The notes under the pieces: generated by a model
What the model was told of the DNA's origin: nothing
The model's database searches: none
Seen by the model: only the letters and a program-made list of their open reading frames with translations
Made by a program: the position numbers and the translations under genes
Shown: positions 28,739-34,280 of the stretch, piece by piece
Layout of the letters: each line of letters opens with the position of its first letter
Position numbering within the stretch: the first letter of the stretch is position 1
Origin: a virus
Lineage: Duplodnaviria > Heunggongvirae > Uroviricota > Caudoviricetes
Direction: 5' to 3' (one strand)
Length of the DNA stretch: 34,410 bases
Virus record (IMG/VR): IMGVR_UViG_2579778652_000012
Span: 1 to 34,410 of that record

Positions 28739-28755
28739 ATTGCTCTAATAAATAT
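28739..28755 (+). promoter_or_regulatory. C1 operator-like 17-mer upstream of the uhr-hrdC-dmt operon
   Basis: ATTGCTCTAATAAATAT, one mismatch to consensus, followed by the conserved TGTTTTTTATGTCG promoter-like extension shared with the ant and kilA sites. Confidence 0.5.
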
Positions 28756-28826
28756 TGTTTTTTATGTCGTGTTTTCGGTACCATTCAGCCATCGCCCTTC
28801 AATGGGCATTTGTTTGGAGTCGTCAG

Positions 28827-29111
28827 ATGCAGATGGAGCTAATAAGCCGCAAGGAGTTCGATAGCCGTGTAACCAGCGGTGAACTCGACAACTTGCAGGC
28901 TATCAAGGTGAAAGAAGGCTTTTGCCTCATTGGGAATCAGAGCGGAACAAATCGCGTTTTTATGCTTCGCCGTACGGATTTGAAGCCATTTGTCTGGAAG
29001 AACGAAATTGGTCCCAGCTCATACGCTCAAACGAGGGGGTGCCACAACCTGGCCTTTTTCTACAAAGACGAGCTTTCTGTGGTTGATATTCAAGGGTTAC
29101 AACATGTTTAA
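28827..29111 (+). CDS. small hypothetical protein upstream of hrdC (Uhr-like position)
   Basis: Track ORF is 28755..29111, but its start coincides with the operator; GGAG lies 7 nt upstream of the ATG at 28827 ([11 protein letters not shown]...). Confidence 0.4.
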
Positions 29112-30009
29112 GCACTGGAAAAACATTACTATTTATAAACTTTCTCGTGAGGCGGATCTGACCGACTTAGAAGATAAAAAGAAAATGCTCCTTTTCACGC
29201 CATGCGGTAGTCAGGATATGGCCAAGTTCGGTTTTGTATCTCCATTTGGTGATAATTCCGAAGTTATCGCTATGCATGGAAATGGTTTTATCCTTGTTGA
29301 AGCAAAGCGCGAAACAAAAATTCTTCCCCCGCCGGTTATCCAGCGAGCTATTCAAGAAAAAATTGAAAAACTTGAGCAAGAACAAGCGCGTAAACTGAAG
29401 AAAACAGAGAAGGACTCCCTGAAAGACGAAGTTCTGCATTCTCTTCTGCCACGGGCTTTTTCAAAGTTTTCTGTTATCCAGGCGATCTACGACGGTTCAA
29501 CTAAACGTATCTATATCAATGCCAGCGCGCGGCAGGCAGAGGATATGCTCGCGCTTATGCGTAAGTCTCTGGGTTCTCTTCCTGTTGTTCCCCTGAGTGT
29601 TGAAAATCCCATTGCATTAACGCTGACCGACTGGGTACGTGATGGTAGTGCTCCACAGGGATTTCAAATGGGGGATGCGGCAGAACTCAAGGCAGTGCTT
29701 GAGGATGGCGGTATTGCCCGAGTGAAAAAGCAGGATTTGGGAAGCGATGAAATTTCCACACACCTGGAAGCTGGCAAGCTCGTCACTAAGTTGGCACTCG
29801 ACTGGCAGAACCGCATTAAATTTACACTGGACCATAACTTCAGCCTTACCAGCGTCAAATTTGCGGATGAATTGCTTGAGCAGAACTCTGATATTGATAG
29901 TGAAGATGTTGCGCAGCGACTGGACGCAGATTTCTTCCTGTTGACCAGTGAAATTTCGTGCCTGGTTGATGCTCTGGTAAATGCCCTTGGCGGAGAGGCT
30001 AAGCAGTGA
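29104..30009 (+). CDS. hrdC: RdgC-like recombination-associated protein (P1 HrdC-like)
   Basis: [16 protein letters not shown]...[17 protein letters not shown]... closely parallels the E. coli RdgC N-terminus (MLWFKNLMVYRLSRE...[11 protein letters not shown]..., recalled). The internal ATG at 29104 gives 301 aa, the RdgC size; the track start at 28990 adds 38 non-homologous residues. Confidence 0.75.
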
Positions 30010-33000
30010 AAGAGCTGTGCTATGGATCTGTTTGCAGTGGAATTGAAGCCGCGAGTATTGCCTGGGAACCGTTGGGTATGCGTCCGGCGTGGTTTGCTGA
30101 AATCGAGCCTTTTCCATCGGCCGTTCTTGCGCTCCGCTGGCCCCATGTTGTCAACCTTGGCGACATGACAAAACTTGCCAAAAAAGTCTTGGCTGGGGAA
30201 ATCGAATCCCCTGACGTGCTCGTCGGGGGAACACCATGTTTTACCGCGGGGCATATGGTTCTTTGTAAAAATGGCTATAAACCAATAGAAGATGTTTGCC
30301 CTGGCGATTACGTAGTCAGTCATCTCGGGCGGTTACAACAAGTAAAAAGAGTTGGTTCAAAAATAGCTAATACGGGGTTACTTAATGCCGTTGGGCAGCC
30401 TTTAGGTATAAGAACAACCAATGACCATCCCTTCCTGGCTGTTCGGTGGAAAGCCCAAAACACCCGGAAAAATGGCACATATTTTAAGAGAGAGTTGTTG
30501 TCTGAACCGGAATGGCGAGCAGCATGTGATATGCCGGGATATCAATGGTGCGCTCTAACTAATTTCAATATTGCATCTCCAGATATTTGTTCTCGGTTCT
30601 TGTCTGAAGAACAGGCTATGTATCTTGCGGGCGCTTATGTTGGCGATGGATATATTAGGAGATGGAGAGGTAAATCTAAGAAGGCGGTTGTTTTTGGCAT
30701 AAATTGCCAGAAATTGAGAAAGTTTCATTGCCGCATACCAGAAAACATATTTTCCGTGGCAAGCGAAATCCGAGGGAGCATCAAAGTAACCTTGAATGAT
30801 ACGTGTTATGCCAATTGGCTTAATGAACATTTTGGCGAGTTAAGCCATGCTAAGCGTATCCCTGCATGGGTGATGTCGCATCCATTGCGTCATGTGTTTT
30901 TACAAGGCTATCTTGATACTGATGGGACACCAAGTGGTAAAGCGGGATTTAGAATTAATAGTGTTAGTCCTGCGCTTGCTTGGGGCGTTGCGGGGTTGTC
31001 ACAGACTTGTGGTTATGTTTCTTCGGTCAGCTTTATTGAAGTTGAGCCCAAAAAAGTGATCGAGGATCGCGTGGTAAATCAACGGAATTATTATCAGGTA
31101 ACAATCTGCCCGCAGAAATTGTCACGTAAATCAAGATTGGCTCATGGAATGCTTTTACGAACAGTCAAAGAGTTTAAATCGGTAGGCCTAGATACTGTAT
31201 ACAACATAGAAGTCGAAGGTGATCATTCCTATATCCTCAATGGTGCGGTGGTCCATAACTGTCAGGCATTCAGTATCGCGGGATTACGTGGTGGGCTTGA
31301 TGATGAGCGTGGCGCGCTAACTTTAAAGTATGTGGAGCTTGCAAATGCAATTGACGACAAACGGGCTGAGTCATTTCTCAAACCAGCCGTTATCGTCTGG
31401 GAAAATGTCCCAGGAGTCTTGTCATCGGCAGATAACGCCTTCGGATGTTTCCTTGCCGGATTGGCTGGAGAAGATGTGCCATTTGAACCAGGTGATCGAC
31501 CTGAATCAGGAAAAAGCAACGCGTTCTGGCGGTGGGATGGCAAAACCGGTTGCCATGTTCCAAAGTGGCCGCAGTGTGGTTGTATTTATGGACCGCAGCG
31601 AAAAGTGGCCTGGAGAATCCTTGATGCCCAATACTTCGGAGTGGCACAACGACGCCGACGCGTGTTTGTTGTCGCAAGTGCTCGAACAGACCTCGATCCC
31701 GCAACGGTACTTTTTGAGTTCGAAGGCGTGCGCCGGGATATTGCGCCGAGCAGAGGCGAGGGGAAGGAAGTTGCCGGAAATGTTGGAAATGGCATTAAAA
31801 GCGGGAGCCATTGGGATAACCCTGTAAATCCTCACCCGACACTTAACCAGTCACACAATACTGGTGGGATTGGTGCAAGTAACCAAGAGATTTTTGCGCA
31901 GCGAGGCAGCGGACTTGTGTATTGCATGGCGCATGGGCAAGGGGGGGCAGAAATAAAAAATGATGGGACATCACCTACTCTTACTTGTAATCATGAAGCT
32001 CCAATTGTGTTTTCTTGCAAGAAAGCTATTGCGTTTACAAGCAAAAATTATGGGCAGGATGCGGGTGTTGAGATTTCCCCAACTTTACGAGCTGGTAACT
32101 CTGCTAATAGCAATCAAAACGCGGGATGCCCACCAGCTGTTGCGTATTCGCTACAACATGCACAAATTGGGCGAAAAGATGATGCTGGACCGCAGGGTAA
32201 AGGGTGGCAAAAAGAGATAAGTTTTACTCTTGATTCCCGCGCAACAGCTGACGCCGTTGCGTTATCTTTTTGGGGGCAGGAAAGTATTGAAAAAGGCGAA
32301 TTAGGTGAGAATGGTTACTTACCTCATATGATGAGCGTTCGCCGTCTGACTCCTGTCGAATGTGAAAGGCTGCAAGGTTTTCCTGATGGACATACGTTGA
32401 TTCCAACGGGAAAGCGTAAGAAAGTTACTTCAGATGAACTTATATACCTTCGCAATCACGATCCTGATTTAAGTGAAGAAGAGGCCGCCATGCTTGCAGC
32501 TGACGGACCTCGTTACAAAGCTATCGGCAATAGTATGGCGATACCAGTAATGCGCTGGATTGGCGAGCGGATTACCAAGGCTGCATGTCGGCAGAAAGAA
32601 GGAAGTGAAACAAAAGAGCGAAAAGTTAAACCAGCGGCAGAATTCGAACGGTCCATATTCAAATGGGCTGGTGGAAAATTTGGTGTTCTGGAACAAATCT
32701 TTCGCTATTTGCCAGAAGGGAAGCGCCTGATTGAACCTTTCGTTGGTGGCGGAGCTGTCTTCATGAATGCCGGATACCAGGAAAATCTGCTAAATGATGT
32801 GAATGCTGACCTGATTAACTTTTACAAGACTCTGCAACGCGAGGCGCATTCACTTATCACTCTGGCACATCGTTTCTTCCAGGACTACAACACACAGGAA
32901 GGATACCTGGCAGTACGGAATGCGTTTAACAAACAAGTCTATGATGATTTACATCGCGCAGCGGCGTTTTTGTTCCTGAACCGACATTGTTTTAACGGAT

Positions 33001-33452
33001 TGACGCGTTACAACCAGGCCGGTGAGTTCAATGTCGGTTATGGGAAGTATAAAACTCCGTATTTCCCATTACAGGAGATGGAAGCCTTCCTCGGTGCGGA
33101 AGGGCGGTCTGAGTTTGTATGCGGTGATTTTGCAGCGGTGATTGAAGCTGCCGGAGAAGGAGATGTCATCTTTTGCGATCCGCCGTATGAACCGCTTCCA
33201 AATACAGAGGGATTCACGAACTATTCCGGTCATGACTTTAAGTTTGAAGAGCAAAAACGCCTGGTGTCTCTGTTGACGGATGCTCATCGTCGAGGTGCAA
33301 AAGTTCTCATTACTAACAGTGGCGCGCCAAACATCAGAGAGCTTTATCATGACAGTGGCTTCAGAGTGGAACCTCTTTTTGCCAGACGTTCTGTGTCTTG
33401 TAAGGGAGACACTCGAGGTGTTGCTCATGACGTTATAGCAATATTGCACTAA
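30006..33452 (+). CDS. dmt: bifunctional DNA methyltransferase Dmt: N-terminal C5-cytosine MTase (intein-interrupted) fused to C-terminal Dam-type N6-adenine MTase
   Basis: GTG start overlapping the hrdC stop, with GGAGAGG 7 nt upstream. C5-MTase motifs: [12 protein letters not shown] (PCQ, split by the intein), [23 protein letters not shown]. Dam-type domain from about nt 32613: [27 protein letters not shown] and catalytic DPPY, collinear with E. coli Dam. Confidence 0.85.
30237..31259 (+). mobile_element. intein (341 codons) with LAGLIDADG-type homing endonuclease domain, inserted in the PCQ motif of the Dmt C5-MTase domain
   Basis: Starts with Cys (CFTAGHMVL, block A-like); TTNDHPFL (block B T-x-x-H); [10 protein letters not shown] and GYLDTDGT (two LAGLIDADG-type motifs); ends ...[10 protein letters not shown] followed by +1 Cys (CQAFSIAG). 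In-frame removal restores [12 protein letters not shown]. Confidence 0.75.
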
Positions 33453-34126: not shown

Positions 34127-34202
34127 GATGGTGTAGCTCAGCGGTTAGAGCGGTTGACTGTTAATCAACGGGTCGATGGTTCAAATCCATCCACCATCGC
34201 CA
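34127..34202 (+). tRNA. tRNA-Asn (anticodon GTT)
   Basis: Manual cloverleaf: acceptor GATGGTG/CACCATC, D-arm GCTC-AGCGGTTAG-AGC, anticodon arm GTTGA-CTGTTAA-TCAAC (GTT), T-arm GATGG-TTCAAAT-CCATC, discriminator G, encoded CCA. Confidence 0.85.
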
Positions 34203-34204
34203 AT

Positions 34205-34280
34205 GCCGGTTTAGCTCAGTTGGTAGAGCGCCTGCCTTGTAAGCAGGATGTCAGCGGTTCGAGTCCGTTAATCGGCACCA
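34205..34280 (+). tRNA. tRNA-Thr (anticodon TGT)
   Basis: Manual cloverleaf: acceptor GCCGGTT/AATCGGC (one G-U), D-arm GCTC-AGTTGGTAG-AGC, anticodon arm CCTGC-CTTGTAA-GCAGG (TGT), T-arm AGCGG-TTCGAGT-CCGTT, encoded CCA; 2 nt after tRNA-Asn. Confidence 0.85.

What the first reader, a model, noticed from the sequence alone, without database searches (positions are those of the whole stretch)
30237..31259. Intein with LAGLIDADG homing endonuclease splits the catalytic PCQ motif of the Dmt C5-cytosine methyltransferase
The N-extein ends ...DVLVGGTP; the insert begins with Cys ([20 protein letters not shown]), carries a block-B-like TTNDHPFL, two LAGLIDADG-type motifs ([18 protein letters not shown]) and ends ...[11 protein letters not shown], followed by [12 protein letters not shown]. 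Deleting the 341 codons in frame gives [12 protein letters not shown], the canonical motif IV of C5-MTases, so the +1 nucleophile of the intein is the catalytic cysteine of the methylase. The methylase would therefore be inactive until protein splicing occurs, and the homing endonuclease would target intein-less dmt alleles in co-resident P1-like plasmids. I do not recall an intein in P1 dmt, so this may be an undescribed intein/host-gene combination in a phage-plasmid.
Basis: partly seen in the sequence, partly recalled or inferred. Interest (0 to 1): 0.85.

Follow-up and report, generated by a model that had tools for sequence, protein, structure and literature searches.

The report
Intein inside phage P1-type DNA methylase
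The Dmt DNA methylase of this P1-like phage-plasmid is interrupted, exactly at its catalytic cysteine, by a textbook self-splicing intein carrying a homing endonuclease; it is real and occupies about 30% of P1-like dmt genes, but it belongs to a large family of phage cytosine-methylase inteins, so it is a well-supported new example, not a new kind of element.

Summary
Window 30237-31259 is a 341-codon in-frame insert in the 1148-aa Dmt ORF (30006-33452). It starts with Cys and ends His-Asn, and Cys-Gln follows. Removing it gives GGTP|CQAFS, which is exactly what intein-less P1, P7 and SJ46 alleles read.

Profiles, a confident AlphaFold model (pLDDT 92) and a fold search (PI-SceI, E = 7e-17) identify a canonical class 1 intein with a LAGLIDADG endonuclease. 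All splicing and nuclease residues are intact.

The insert is a presence/absence polymorphism: 152 of 5,426 complete E. coli genomes carry it and 337 have the empty site. Three Dmt backbone classes each exist with and without it. A laboratory P1 stock (OP279344) has it.

It is not unique. At least 120 protein clusters, from phages of E. coli, Mannheimia, Lactobacillus, Propionibacterium and metagenomes, carry related inteins at the same Pro|Cys position of C5-methylases. A 2025 survey lists C-5 methylases as known intein hosts. I found no paper on the P1 Dmt intein.

Splicing and homing are inferred, not shown. Linkage decay around the intein equals background recombination, so it does not prove endonuclease-driven homing. 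The Dam half may work unspliced.

Verdict: a new member of a known kind, of moderate interest.

The parts
28739..28784 (+). C1 repressor operator Odmt (28739-28755) overlapping the sigma-70 promoter Pdmt (28755-28784) of the uhr-hrdC-dmt operon
   Evidence: The sequence is identical to the annotated P1 features in AF234172 (annotation, alignment). Function is taken from the P1 record's annotation and was not tested here.
28827..30009 (+). uhr (28827-29111) and hrdC/rdgC (29104-30009), the genes upstream of dmt in the same operon
   Evidence: Synteny with P1 AF234172, and coordinates transferred from its annotation. ORFs listed.
30006..33452 (+). dmt precursor ORF, 1148 aa, GTG start: C5-cytosine methylase, then the intein, then the Dam-type N6-adenine methylase
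   Evidence: One search lists the ORF. One search gives PF00145 at 106 bits and PF02086 at 192 bits. One search gives TIGR00571 dam at 250 bits. The DNA is 96-99% identical to P1-family dmt outside the insert.
30006..30236 (+). N-extein, 77 codons: C5-methylase motif I region ([10 protein letters not shown], 30027-30056) up to the Pro of motif IV (CCA, 30234-30236)
   Evidence: All 27 intein-containing alleles read CCA at the last codon and all 37 empty alleles read CCT.
30237..31259 (+). Intein, 341 codons, class 1, with an internal LAGLIDADG homing-endonuclease domain
   Evidence: AF2 model pLDDT 92.2 and pTM 0.89. The top 16 PDB fold matches are all bifunctional LAGLIDADG inteins, including PI-SceI, the Tli and Pho VMA inteins, PI-PfuI and PI-PkoII. 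Presence or absence is precise.
30237..30275 (+). Splicing block A ([13 protein letters not shown]); Cys1 (TGT, 30237-30239) is the first nucleophile
   Evidence: C1, F2, A4 and G5 are invariant in the family alignment A2, down to 23% identity. Cys is the first residue in 138 of 138 representative relatives.
30414..30434 (+). Splicing block B (TTNDHPF) containing the TxxH motif (Thr61, His64)
   Evidence: T61 and H64 are invariant in A2.
30618..30656 (+). First LAGLIDADG motif ([13 protein letters not shown]) with the catalytic Asp137
   Evidence: G132 and G138 are invariant and D137 is at least 90% conserved in A2. In the model a helix spans 124-137 and is followed by a strand.
30846..30929 (+). 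Conserved Lys206 (in HAKRIPAW) and the second LAGLIDADG motif ([12 protein letters not shown]) with the catalytic Asp229
   Evidence: K206, G224 and G230 are invariant and D229 is at least 90% conserved. PF14528 LAGLIDADG_3 matches intein residues 221-284.
31197..31259 (+). Splicing blocks F and G ([21 protein letters not shown]), with Asp329, penultimate His340 and terminal Asn341
   Evidence: TIGR01443 scores 25.9 bits. V321, N323, V339 and N341 are invariant and D329 is at least 90% conserved. This stretch aligns to the C-terminus of the Spl DnaX mini-intein 7cfv. HN is the last dipeptide in 124 of 138 relatives.
31260..33449 (+). C-extein, 730 codons. Cys+1 (TGT, 31260-31262) is the catalytic Cys of motif IV. 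It continues with C5 motifs VI (31398-31415) and VIII (31647-31667), the variable target-recognition region (about 31755-32339), motifs IX and X (32340-32549), and then the Dam domain (32646-33443, DPPY at 33177-33188)
   Evidence: The spliced protein gives a continuous PF00145 match over residues 8-135 at 126.7 bits, against 106.1 bits in three stretches for the precursor.

Best explanation
Window 30237-31259 encodes a canonical class 1 intein with an embedded LAGLIDADG homing endonuclease. It sits between Pro77 and the catalytic Cys of motif IV (PCQ) of the C5-cytosine methylase half of the bifunctional P1-type Dmt protein.

How it most likely works:
1. Transcription. The uhr-hrdC-dmt operon is transcribed from Pdmt when C1 repression is lifted. 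This is inferred from the P1 annotation and the identical operator sequence.
2. Translation gives a 1148-aa precursor in which the C5 active site is split. The Dam domain is intact and may already be active.
3. Splicing. The intein folds. Cys1 makes the N-S acyl shift, the thioester passes to Cys+1, Asn341 cyclises, and an S-N shift restores the Pro-Cys peptide bond. The products are the 807-aa Dmt with an intact PCQ loop and a free 341-aa intein.
4. Homing. The free intein acts as a site-specific endonuclease on intein-less dmt alleles around ...GGAACACCT|TGTCAGGC... whenever two P1-like genomes share a cell. Repair then copies the intein into the cut allele.

What is shown: the anatomy, the fold, the conservation of catalytic residues, the precise empty sites and the spread across backbones. 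What is inferred: splicing, endonuclease activity and homing.
For: - **Anatomy.**
- **Profiles.** LAGLIDADG_3, Hint_2 and intein_Cterm all score above their curated cut-offs.
- **Fold.** The model has pLDDT 92.2. Its best PDB matches are PI-SceI (E = 7e-17), the Tli and Pho VMA inteins, PI-PfuI and PI-PkoII.
- **Catalytic residues.** C1, T61, H64, D329, N341 and Cys+1 (splicing) and D137, K206 and D229 (nuclease) are invariant or at least 90% conserved down to 23% identity.
- **Precise empty sites.** These occur in P1, P7, SJ46 and hundreds of plasmids.
- **In-silico splicing.** It restores a continuous PF00145 match, 126.7 against 106.1 bits.
- **Backbones.** Each of three Dmt backbone lengths exists in both forms: 672/1013, 754/1095 and 807/1148 aa.
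- **Copy integrity.** All 153 E. coli copies are full length and at least 99% identical. None of 29 copies has a stop codon, and none of the polymorphisms touches a catalytic residue.
- **Diversity.** Intein diversity (pi = 0.005) is lower than that of its flanks (0.013-0.024).
- **Family.** Of 138 relatives, 126 have Pro at -1 and 134 have Cys at +1. All are 323-363 aa, so all keep the endonuclease domain.
Against: - No experiment shows splicing or cleavage.
- The intein-SNP association decays with distance exactly like background SNP-SNP linkage in this region. Spread by ordinary homologous recombination therefore explains the population pattern as well as homing does.
- The polymorphic codons in the intein split 14 synonymous to 15 non-synonymous. 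That is only moderate purifying selection, on small numbers.
- An open reading frame through the intein could be maintained simply because the Dam domain lies downstream. ORF integrity is therefore not proof of splicing.
- Pro at -1 is reported as unfavourable for several engineered inteins (my own recollection, not checked here). The family-wide Pro at -1 argues that this lineage is adapted to it.
- One intein-containing allele (L015) has a nonsense codon in the N-extein, and the Mannheimia phage copy has a degraded C-extein. Broken hosts are therefore tolerated.
Confidence: 0.85

Rival explanations
1. It is a splicing-competent intein whose endonuclease is no longer active, or only marginally so. 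It persists and moves between P1-like plasmids only through ordinary homologous recombination and vertical descent.
For: Linkage between the intein and flanking SNPs is indistinguishable from background linkage. The dmt region is clearly a recombination mosaic, with several target-recognition variants on otherwise near-identical flanks. Across the wider family, intein and extein divergence are correlated (r = 0.81), which suggests long co-descent and not frequent jumping. Within-population polymorphism in the intein is half non-synonymous.
Against: Both LAGLIDADG aspartates and the conserved lysine are retained across relatives as low as 23% identical. None of 138 representative relatives, and none of 153 E. 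coli copies, has lost or truncated the endonuclease domain. Under the usual homing-cycle model, a dead endonuclease would be expected to decay.
Confidence: 0.2
2. It is a splicing-defective or very inefficient intein that knocks out the C5-methylase half. This is tolerated because C5 methylation is dispensable and the downstream Dam domain works inside the unspliced precursor.
For: The Dam domain is a separate C-terminal domain. The P1 record itself calls the C5 activity only 'perhaps'. One intein-containing allele has a nonsense codon in the N-extein, and the Mannheimia phage copy has a degraded C-extein. Pro at -1 is unfavourable in some model inteins (own knowledge).
Against: All residues needed for the four splicing steps are present and conserved. 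Pro at -1 is the native context in 126 of 138 relatives. The C5 motifs IV, VI, VIII, IX and X are all intact in the window's C-extein. Among intein-containing alleles the C-extein shows more synonymous than non-synonymous polymorphic codons, 22 to 14.
Confidence: 0.1
3. It is not an intein but a colinear accessory domain of the methylase, for example a domesticated DNA-binding LAGLIDADG module, that stays in the mature protein.
For: LAGLIDADG folds have been domesticated as DNA-binding modules. WhiA structures appear among the weak fold matches.
Against: The insert sits inside the PCQ catalytic loop, which could not form with 341 residues in it. The insert is flanked by complete Hint splicing blocks. 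It is precisely absent from otherwise 97-99% identical alleles. The best fold matches are full inteins and not free-standing LAGLIDADG proteins.
Confidence: 0.02

Closest known systems
PI-SceI (Saccharomyces VMA1 intein) and the archaeal VMA, PI-PfuI and PI-PkoII inteins: class 1 inteins with an embedded LAGLIDADG homing endonuclease
   Same: The two-domain architecture is the same: a Hint splicing domain split by a LAGLIDADG nuclease. So are Cys1, TxxH, the terminal HN and Cys+1, the two LAGLIDADG motifs each with an acidic residue, and a lysine between them. These are the best fold matches (E = 7e-17 to 5e-9).
   Different: Sequence identity is only 11-17%. The host protein is different, a DNA methylase and not a V-ATPase, polymerase or RNR. 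This intein is shorter (341 against 454-537 aa), so it presumably lacks some of the extra DNA-recognition regions. Its activity is untested.
Inteins of actinobacteriophage DNA methylases (Kelley et al. 2016, PMC5050341, DNMT-1/2; Gosselin et al. 2023, PMC9957025; 2025 survey, bioRxiv 10.1101/2025.01.02.630785)
   Same: They are phage-borne LAGLIDADG inteins in orphan DNA methylases, with patchy distribution and conserved insertion sites. The mycobacteriophage Pacc40 gp60 intein is a detectable relative, at 27% identity over the full length. The 2025 survey lists C-5 methylase (IPR001525) as an intein host.
   Different: The inteins described in detail sit in N6/N4-type methylases at a different site (Pacc40...QMHV|C...KN|CPLQFD). 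None of those papers mentions enterobacterial phages, P1 or Dmt, or the catalytic-cysteine insertion point.
Same-site inteins in other phage C5-methylases: Mannheimia phage 587AP2, E. coli jumbo phage A4 (Asteriusvirus), Propionibacterium phage B22, Lactobacillus phage Nyseid, and many metagenomic phage contigs
   Same: The insertion point is identical (P|C...HN|CQ), the length is similar (312-346 aa), and identity is 27-58%. This is the family the window's intein belongs to.
   Different: The host methylases are single-function C5 enzymes, without the fused Dam domain of P1 Dmt. They are annotated only as methyltransferases or hypothetical proteins, and none is characterised.
Intein-less Dmt of reference P1 (AF234172), P7 and SJ46
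   Same: The exteins are 96-99% identical at DNA level, the operon and C1-controlled promoter are the same, and the SJ46 Dmt has the same 807-aa length as the predicted spliced product.
   Different: They lack the 1023-bp insert. Their Pro codon before the site is CCT and not CCA.

Membership tests
Class 1 intein (Hint-fold protein-splicing element) | In-frame insertion inside a conserved host protein, with homologous alleles that lack it precisely | tested here: met
   Alignment A1. 37 of 37 empty alleles read CCT|TGTCAG and 27 of 27 occupied alleles read CCA|TGT...AAC|TGTCAG. There are 337 empty and 152 occupied complete E. coli genomes.
Class 1 intein (Hint-fold protein-splicing element) | N-terminal nucleophile (Cys/Ser at position 1) and the block B TxxH motif | tested here: met
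   Cys1, Thr61 and His64 are invariant in the family alignment. The Hint_2 match covers residues 1-49 at 28.5 bits against a 28.4 cut-off.
Class 1 intein (Hint-fold protein-splicing element) | C-terminal His-Asn followed by a Cys/Ser/Thr +1 nucleophile, plus the block F Asp | tested here: met
   The sequence reads ...[15 protein letters not shown]|C. TIGR01443 scores 25.9 bits against a 15.6 cut-off. N341 is invariant and D329 is at least 90% conserved. Cys+1 occurs in 134 of 138 relatives.
Class 1 intein (Hint-fold protein-splicing element) | Hint (horseshoe beta) fold with the N- and C-terminal halves forming one domain | tested here: met
   The AF2 model has pLDDT 92.2, with beta-rich stretches at residues 1-107 and 260-341 around a helical core. 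Full-length Foldseek matches are to solved inteins, with TM 0.53-0.62. The basis is a predicted structure, not a solved one.
Class 1 intein (Hint-fold protein-splicing element) | Actual protein splicing: ligated exteins plus free intein | not testable with these tools
   This needs expression and a western blot or mass spectrometry. Only in-silico splicing was done. It restores a continuous PF00145 match, 126.7 against 106.1 bits.
LAGLIDADG (DOD) homing endonuclease, intein-borne (PI- type) | Two LAGLIDADG motifs, each ending in a catalytic acidic residue, in a pseudo-dimeric alpha-beta-beta-alpha-beta-beta-alpha core | tested here: met
   The motifs are [13 protein letters not shown] (D137) and [12 protein letters not shown] (D229). 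PF14528 scores 35.1 bits against a 22.5 cut-off. D137, D229 and K206 are conserved. Secondary structure between residues 124 and 267 fits the core, and there are fold matches to I-SceI, I-OnuI and I-AniI.
LAGLIDADG (DOD) homing endonuclease, intein-borne (PI- type) | Site-specific cleavage of the intein-less allele, followed by homing | not testable with these tools
   Only indirect population data exist. The intein occurs on three backbone classes and has lower diversity than its flanks. Its linkage decay equals the background, so homing is not demonstrated.
C5-cytosine DNA methyltransferase (PF00145), the host protein | Motifs I, IV (PCQ), VI (ENV), VIII (QxRxR), IX and X in order, with the catalytic Cys in motif IV | tested here: met
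   After in-silico splicing, all the motifs are found in order and PF00145 scores 126.7 bits. In the precursor, motif IV is split between Pro77 and Cys419.
Motif-IV intein family of phage C5-methylases (defined here from the data, not a curated family) | Related intein sequence inserted between Pro and the catalytic Cys of motif IV | tested here: met
   About 123 of 138 representative relatives read P|intein|C[QT]xxSxAG, mostly with ENV within 120 aa.

The most novel reading that the evidence does not exclude
The intein is more than a passenger, in one of two ways.

(a) Dmt fuses two methylases in one chain, and only the C5 half needs splicing. The intein could therefore act as a post-translational delay or condition-sensitive switch, for example through a Cys1-Cys+1 disulfide under oxidative conditions. 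That would uncouple C5 methylation from Dam methylation during P1 lytic growth.

(b) P1-like plasmids are mutually incompatible and meet only transiently. The endonuclease, which is made only after C1 derepression, could then work as a weapon that cuts the dmt region of a rival intein-less phage-plasmid. That would bias inheritance of neighbouring markers, as homing endonucleases do in T-even phage marker exclusion.

Nothing in my data excludes either idea, and nothing supports either beyond opportunity.
Probability: 0.1. Interest if true: 0.6.

Novelty: new member of a known kind. Interest (0 to 1): 0.4.

Why it matters
- **A native intein in a classic system.** P1 is a classic genetic tool, and E. 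coli is usually treated as an intein-free expression host. Yet about 3% of complete E. coli genomes, and at least one laboratory P1 stock, carry a native and apparently intact intein that annotation pipelines label simply as 'Dam family methyltransferase'.
- **Consequences for work on Dmt.** Anyone studying P1 Dmt, whose C5 activity has never been firmly established, should know that a third of alleles need protein splicing to form the C5 active site. So should anyone reading methylomes of strains that carry P1-like plasmids.
- **A tractable model.** The system offers both allele types, a culturable phage and an easy host. It can be used to measure intein homing between phage-plasmids, and to study an intein that natively splices after a -1 proline using the host enzyme's catalytic cysteine as the +1 nucleophile.
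- **A candidate nuclease.** It also supplies a candidate rare-cutting endonuclease with a known approximate target.
- **Not a new kind.** It is not a new kind of element. It is one branch of a large, under-described family of inteins at motif IV of phage C5-methylases.

Tried and rejected
- **Literature.** I ran ten full-text searches: intein with Dmt, bacteriophage P1, P1-like, phage-plasmid, cytosine methyltransferase, cytosine-specific, DNA methylase and Dcm, plus the accession OP279344. None found a description of a P1 Dmt intein. Several apparent co-mentions were read and were unrelated. Novikova et al. 2016 does not mention methylases in its main text.
- **Co-conversion as proof of homing.** The intein-SNP r2 falls from 1.0 at -1 bp to about 0 beyond 300 bp. 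At first I read this as co-conversion tracts. The control showed the same decay for ordinary SNP pairs, so I withdrew it as evidence for homing.
- **Search for a donor lineage.** I looked for the source of the flank variants private to intein-containing alleles (-22C, -48T, -118T, -132G, and the distinct GTGCTGGTGGGAGGGACACCA flank of L019, L020, L023 and L025) among the divergent loci. None matched.
- **Intein against extein divergence.** Across the wider family, identities are correlated (r = 0.81) and inteins evolve faster. Only one pair (L038/L040) has an intein clearly more similar than its extein. There is therefore no strong sign of recent transfer between methylase lineages.
- **Sequence search of solved structures.** This gave only weak hits: Spl DnaX mini-intein at E = 0.0014 and PI-PkoII at E = 0.027. 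The fold search was needed.
- **N-extein polymorphism count.** The count of 11 synonymous to 54 non-synonymous codons is an artefact of the poly-C assembly error in L022 and was discarded.
- **Pro at -1 as an argument against splicing.** This is weakened by the finding that 126 of 138 relatives share it.
Full report
**1. What is in the sequence**

The window is a P1-like phage-plasmid (genus Punavirus). Its first 25 kb is 96.7% identical to phage P1 over 90% of its length. The dmt region is 100% identical to E. coli plasmid NZ_CP027199.1.

The ORF at 30006..33452 (+) encodes 1148 aa. It matches the C5-cytosine methylase family PF00145 in its N-terminal two-thirds and a Dam-type N6-adenine methylase (PF02086, TIGR00571) at residues 881-1146. 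This is the bifunctional Dmt of P1.

The insert begins with Cys (TGT) directly after ...DVLVGGTP. It ends ...VVHN (AAC) and is followed by CQAFSIAG.

**2. It is an intein with a LAGLIDADG endonuclease**

- *Profiles.* The insert alone scores above the curated cut-offs of LAGLIDADG_3 (35.1 against 22.5 bits), Hint_2 (28.5 against 28.4) and the NCBIfam intein C-terminal model TIGR01443 (25.9 against 15.6). It scores below the cut-off for PF14890.
- *Fold.* An AlphaFold2 model built on an 11-sequence alignment is confident (pLDDT 92.2, pTM 0.89). Beta-rich N- and C-terminal parts surround a helix-strand core. Foldseek against the PDB returns full-length matches to PI-SceI (E = 7e-17), the Thermococcus and Pyrococcus VMA inteins, PI-PfuI and PI-PkoII. 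Free-standing LAGLIDADG enzymes match the central part only.
- *Conserved residues.* In an alignment with relatives down to 23% identity, the conserved positions are the functional ones. For splicing these are Cys1, Thr61 and His64 (block B), Asp329 (block F), Asn341 and Cys+1. For the nuclease they are Asp137 and Asp229, which end the two LAGLIDADG motifs, with Lys206 between them.

**3. Empty sites exist and are exact**

- *Phage records.* P1 (AF234172), P7 and Salmonella phage SJ46 lack the 1023 bp. SJ46 Dmt is 807 aa, exactly the predicted spliced length, and has the same central region as the window.
- *Junction sequences.* In 64 P1-like alleles, all 27 occupied alleles read CCA|TGT TTT...CAT AAC|TGT CAG. 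All 37 empty alleles read CCT|TGT CAG.
- *In-silico splicing.* Removing the insert raises the PF00145 score from 106.1 bits in three pieces to 126.7 bits, with one continuous match across motifs I-IV.
- *Motifs.* All later C5 motifs (ENV, QRRRR, RRLTPxECxRLQGFP, GNS) are intact.

**4. Distribution**

- In PLSDB, 126 of 500 matching plasmids carry the insert. The rest show a contiguous 600-bp empty site.
- Among 5,426 complete E. coli genomes, 152 carry the intein. Every copy is full length and at least 99% identical, and 148 of the 153 copies are on plasmids. A further 337 genomes have the empty site. About 31% of alleles are therefore occupied.
- The insert also occurs in Salmonella, E. albertii and E. 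fergusonii plasmids and in phages RCS47 and vB_EcoM-Ro157c2YLVW.
- It is also in the P1 stock sequenced as OP279344, which has been used in published Argonaute experiments.
- Dmt comes in several backbone lengths that differ in the central target-recognition region. The 672-, 754- and 807-aa backbones each exist with and without the extra 341 residues. The 862-aa backbone was seen only without (5 alleles).

**5. Is it moving by homing?**

- *Diversity.* Among occupied alleles the intein is less diverse (pi = 0.0053) than the 700 bp upstream (0.0237) or the 480 bp downstream (0.0132).
- *Association with flanking SNPs.* It is perfect at -1, about 0.6-0.8 out to about 130 bp upstream and about 0.3-0.4 out to about 130 bp downstream. 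It is about zero beyond 300 bp. Several upstream variants are private to occupied alleles.
- *The control.* I first read this as co-conversion. The control says otherwise. Ordinary SNP pairs in the same region show the same decay: mean r2 of 0.53, 0.35, 0.11 and 0.09 by distance bin, against 0.49, 0.31, 0.13 and 0.06 for the intein.
- *Conclusion.* The data show a single-origin insertion that has been recombined onto many backgrounds. They do not separate endonuclease-driven homing from general recombination.
- *Case for an active endonuclease.* The case rests on conservation. The catalytic residues are kept across the family. No copy among 153 in E. coli or 138 representative relatives has lost the nuclease domain. 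No copy has an internal stop codon. Polymorphic codons within the intein split 14 synonymous to 15 non-synonymous, which indicates moderate and not strong constraint.

**6. Expression context**

The C1 operator Odmt and the promoter Pdmt annotated in P1 upstream of uhr-hrdC-dmt are identical in the window, at about 28739-28784. If the P1 annotation holds, the precursor, and so the endonuclease, is made mainly when C1 repression is lifted. That means during lytic growth or induction, which is also when two P1-like genomes can coexist. This step is inference.

**7. Caveats on function**

The Dam domain lies entirely in the C-extein and may function in the precursor. A maintained reading frame through the intein is therefore not evidence of splicing on its own.
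- Pro at -1 is, as I recall, unfavourable for some engineered inteins. However, 126 of 138 relatives have Pro at -1, so this lineage is evidently adapted to it.
- One occupied allele (L015) has a TAG codon in the N-extein. L022's apparent disruption is a poly-C assembly artefact.
- The Mannheimia phage and prophage copy has a degraded C-extein.

**8. Comparison with what is known**

- *The family.* The intein is one branch of a large family. An exhaustive search of 1.84 billion representative proteins found 192 clusters at E ≤ 1e-30 and 1,619 at E ≤ 1e-10.
- *Junctions.* Of the best 138 clusters with both junctions visible, about 123 read P|intein|C[QT]xxSxAG, mostly with the ENV motif downstream. 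That is the same Pro|Cys point of C5-methylase motif IV.
- *Named examples.* These include E. coli jumbo phage A4, Propionibacterium phage B22, Lactobacillus phage Nyseid and Mannheimia phage 587AP2, plus thirteen IMG/VR contigs.
- *A relative at another site.* A more distant relative, mycobacteriophage Pacc40 gp60, sits in an N4/N6 methylase at a different site. It corresponds to the DNMT inteins of Kelley et al. 2016.
- *Literature.* Inteins in actinophage methylases are documented (PMC5050341, PMC9957025). A 2025 preprint lists C-5 DNA methylase (IPR001525) among intein hosts already reported. I found no paper that mentions an intein in P1 Dmt, in any enterobacterial phage-plasmid, or specifically at the catalytic cysteine. 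That search covers open-access text only.
- *Database annotation.* Records mostly label the gene 'Dam family methyltransferase'. A few fragments are called 'Hint domain-containing protein' or 'LAGLIDADG family homing endonuclease'.

**9. Verdict**

The element is a canonical class 1 LAGLIDADG intein, most probably splicing-competent and probably still encoding an active homing endonuclease. It is a new, apparently undescribed member of a known kind: inteins of phage DNA methylases, and specifically a large same-site family in C5-methylases.

Its value is practical. It offers a native intein in a classic and tractable E. coli phage, with both allele types and a lab stock available. It also bears directly on how Dmt's C5 activity should be studied. 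Interest is moderate (0.4).

Noticed in passing
window 31755-32339 (Dmt residues about 584-778); loci L001-L081: The central target-recognition region of Dmt is hypervariable among otherwise 96-99% identical P1-like elements. There are at least four length classes (spliced lengths 672, 754, 807 and 862 aa) with unrelated sequence between the conserved GVRR[DN]IAPSR and [15 protein letters not shown] blocks. This suggests frequent swapping of C5-methylation specificity by recombination.
   Followed up: partly
OP279344.1 (locus L003), dmt at 1501-4542: A laboratory P1 stock (del res del mod, used in Argonaute studies) differs from the reference P1 genome AF234172 in dmt. It carries the intein and a different, shorter central region (1013 aa against 754 aa). 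Lab 'P1' stocks are therefore not uniform at this locus.
   Followed up: partly
empty-site alleles, positions -7 and -4 relative to the insertion point (window equivalents 30230 and 30233): Intein-less alleles split about evenly into two synonymous haplotypes next to the insertion site: GGAACACCT (18 of 37) and GGTACGCCT (19 of 37). Occupied alleles always have ACA CCA. The GGTACG haplotype could be a cleavage-resistant target variant, but this was not tested.
   Followed up: no
L019, L020, L023, L025 (intein-containing), the 21 bp upstream of the intein: Four occupied alleles have a distinct upstream flank, GTGCTGGTGGGAGGGACACCA, with four synonymous differences from every other P1-like allele, occupied or empty. 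No source lineage was found among the fetched loci.
   Followed up: partly
L015:2501-2755 and L022:2501-2770: L015 (intein-containing) has a TTG to TAG nonsense change at Dmt codon 62, 16 codons before the intein, so it is a possible pseudogene. L022's apparent frameshift is a poly-C run typical of an assembly artefact.
   Followed up: yes
L085 (Mannheimia phage vB_MhS_587AP2) 964-2800; protein P0011: The Mannheimia copy of the same-site intein is followed by a degraded C-extein (CQSDKGGTVKASGGGFEWRE, then a stop). The rest of the methylase is annotated as a separate ORF, and an HNH endonuclease gene lies just downstream. This is a decayed host gene with an intact-looking intein, present on 578 contigs.
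   Followed up: partly
window 1-1437: The first 1.4 kb of the window does not match P1 in the megablast alignment, which starts at 1438. It holds a 144-aa ORF (628-1062, minus strand) next to tail-fibre-like ORFs. This is probably the variable host-range part of the tail-fibre region.
   Followed up: no
window 34127-34280; L001 5461-5707: tRNA-Asn (GTT) and tRNA-Thr (TGT) lie downstream of dmt, as in P1. Phage Ro157c2YLVW has an extra tRNA-Tyr between them.
   Followed up: no
E. coli genome hits, e.g. NZ_CP007393.1 2210227-2211249: Five of the 153 intein copies in complete E. coli genomes are on records labelled as chromosomes and not plasmids. They may be integrated P1-like elements or assembly joins.
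   Followed up: no
window 30237-31259 against its flanks: The intein is more AT-rich than its host gene. GC is 43.1% against 54.5% for the N-extein and 48.3% for the C-extein, and GC3 is 37% against 52% and 40%. This is compatible with a foreign origin.
   Followed up: no
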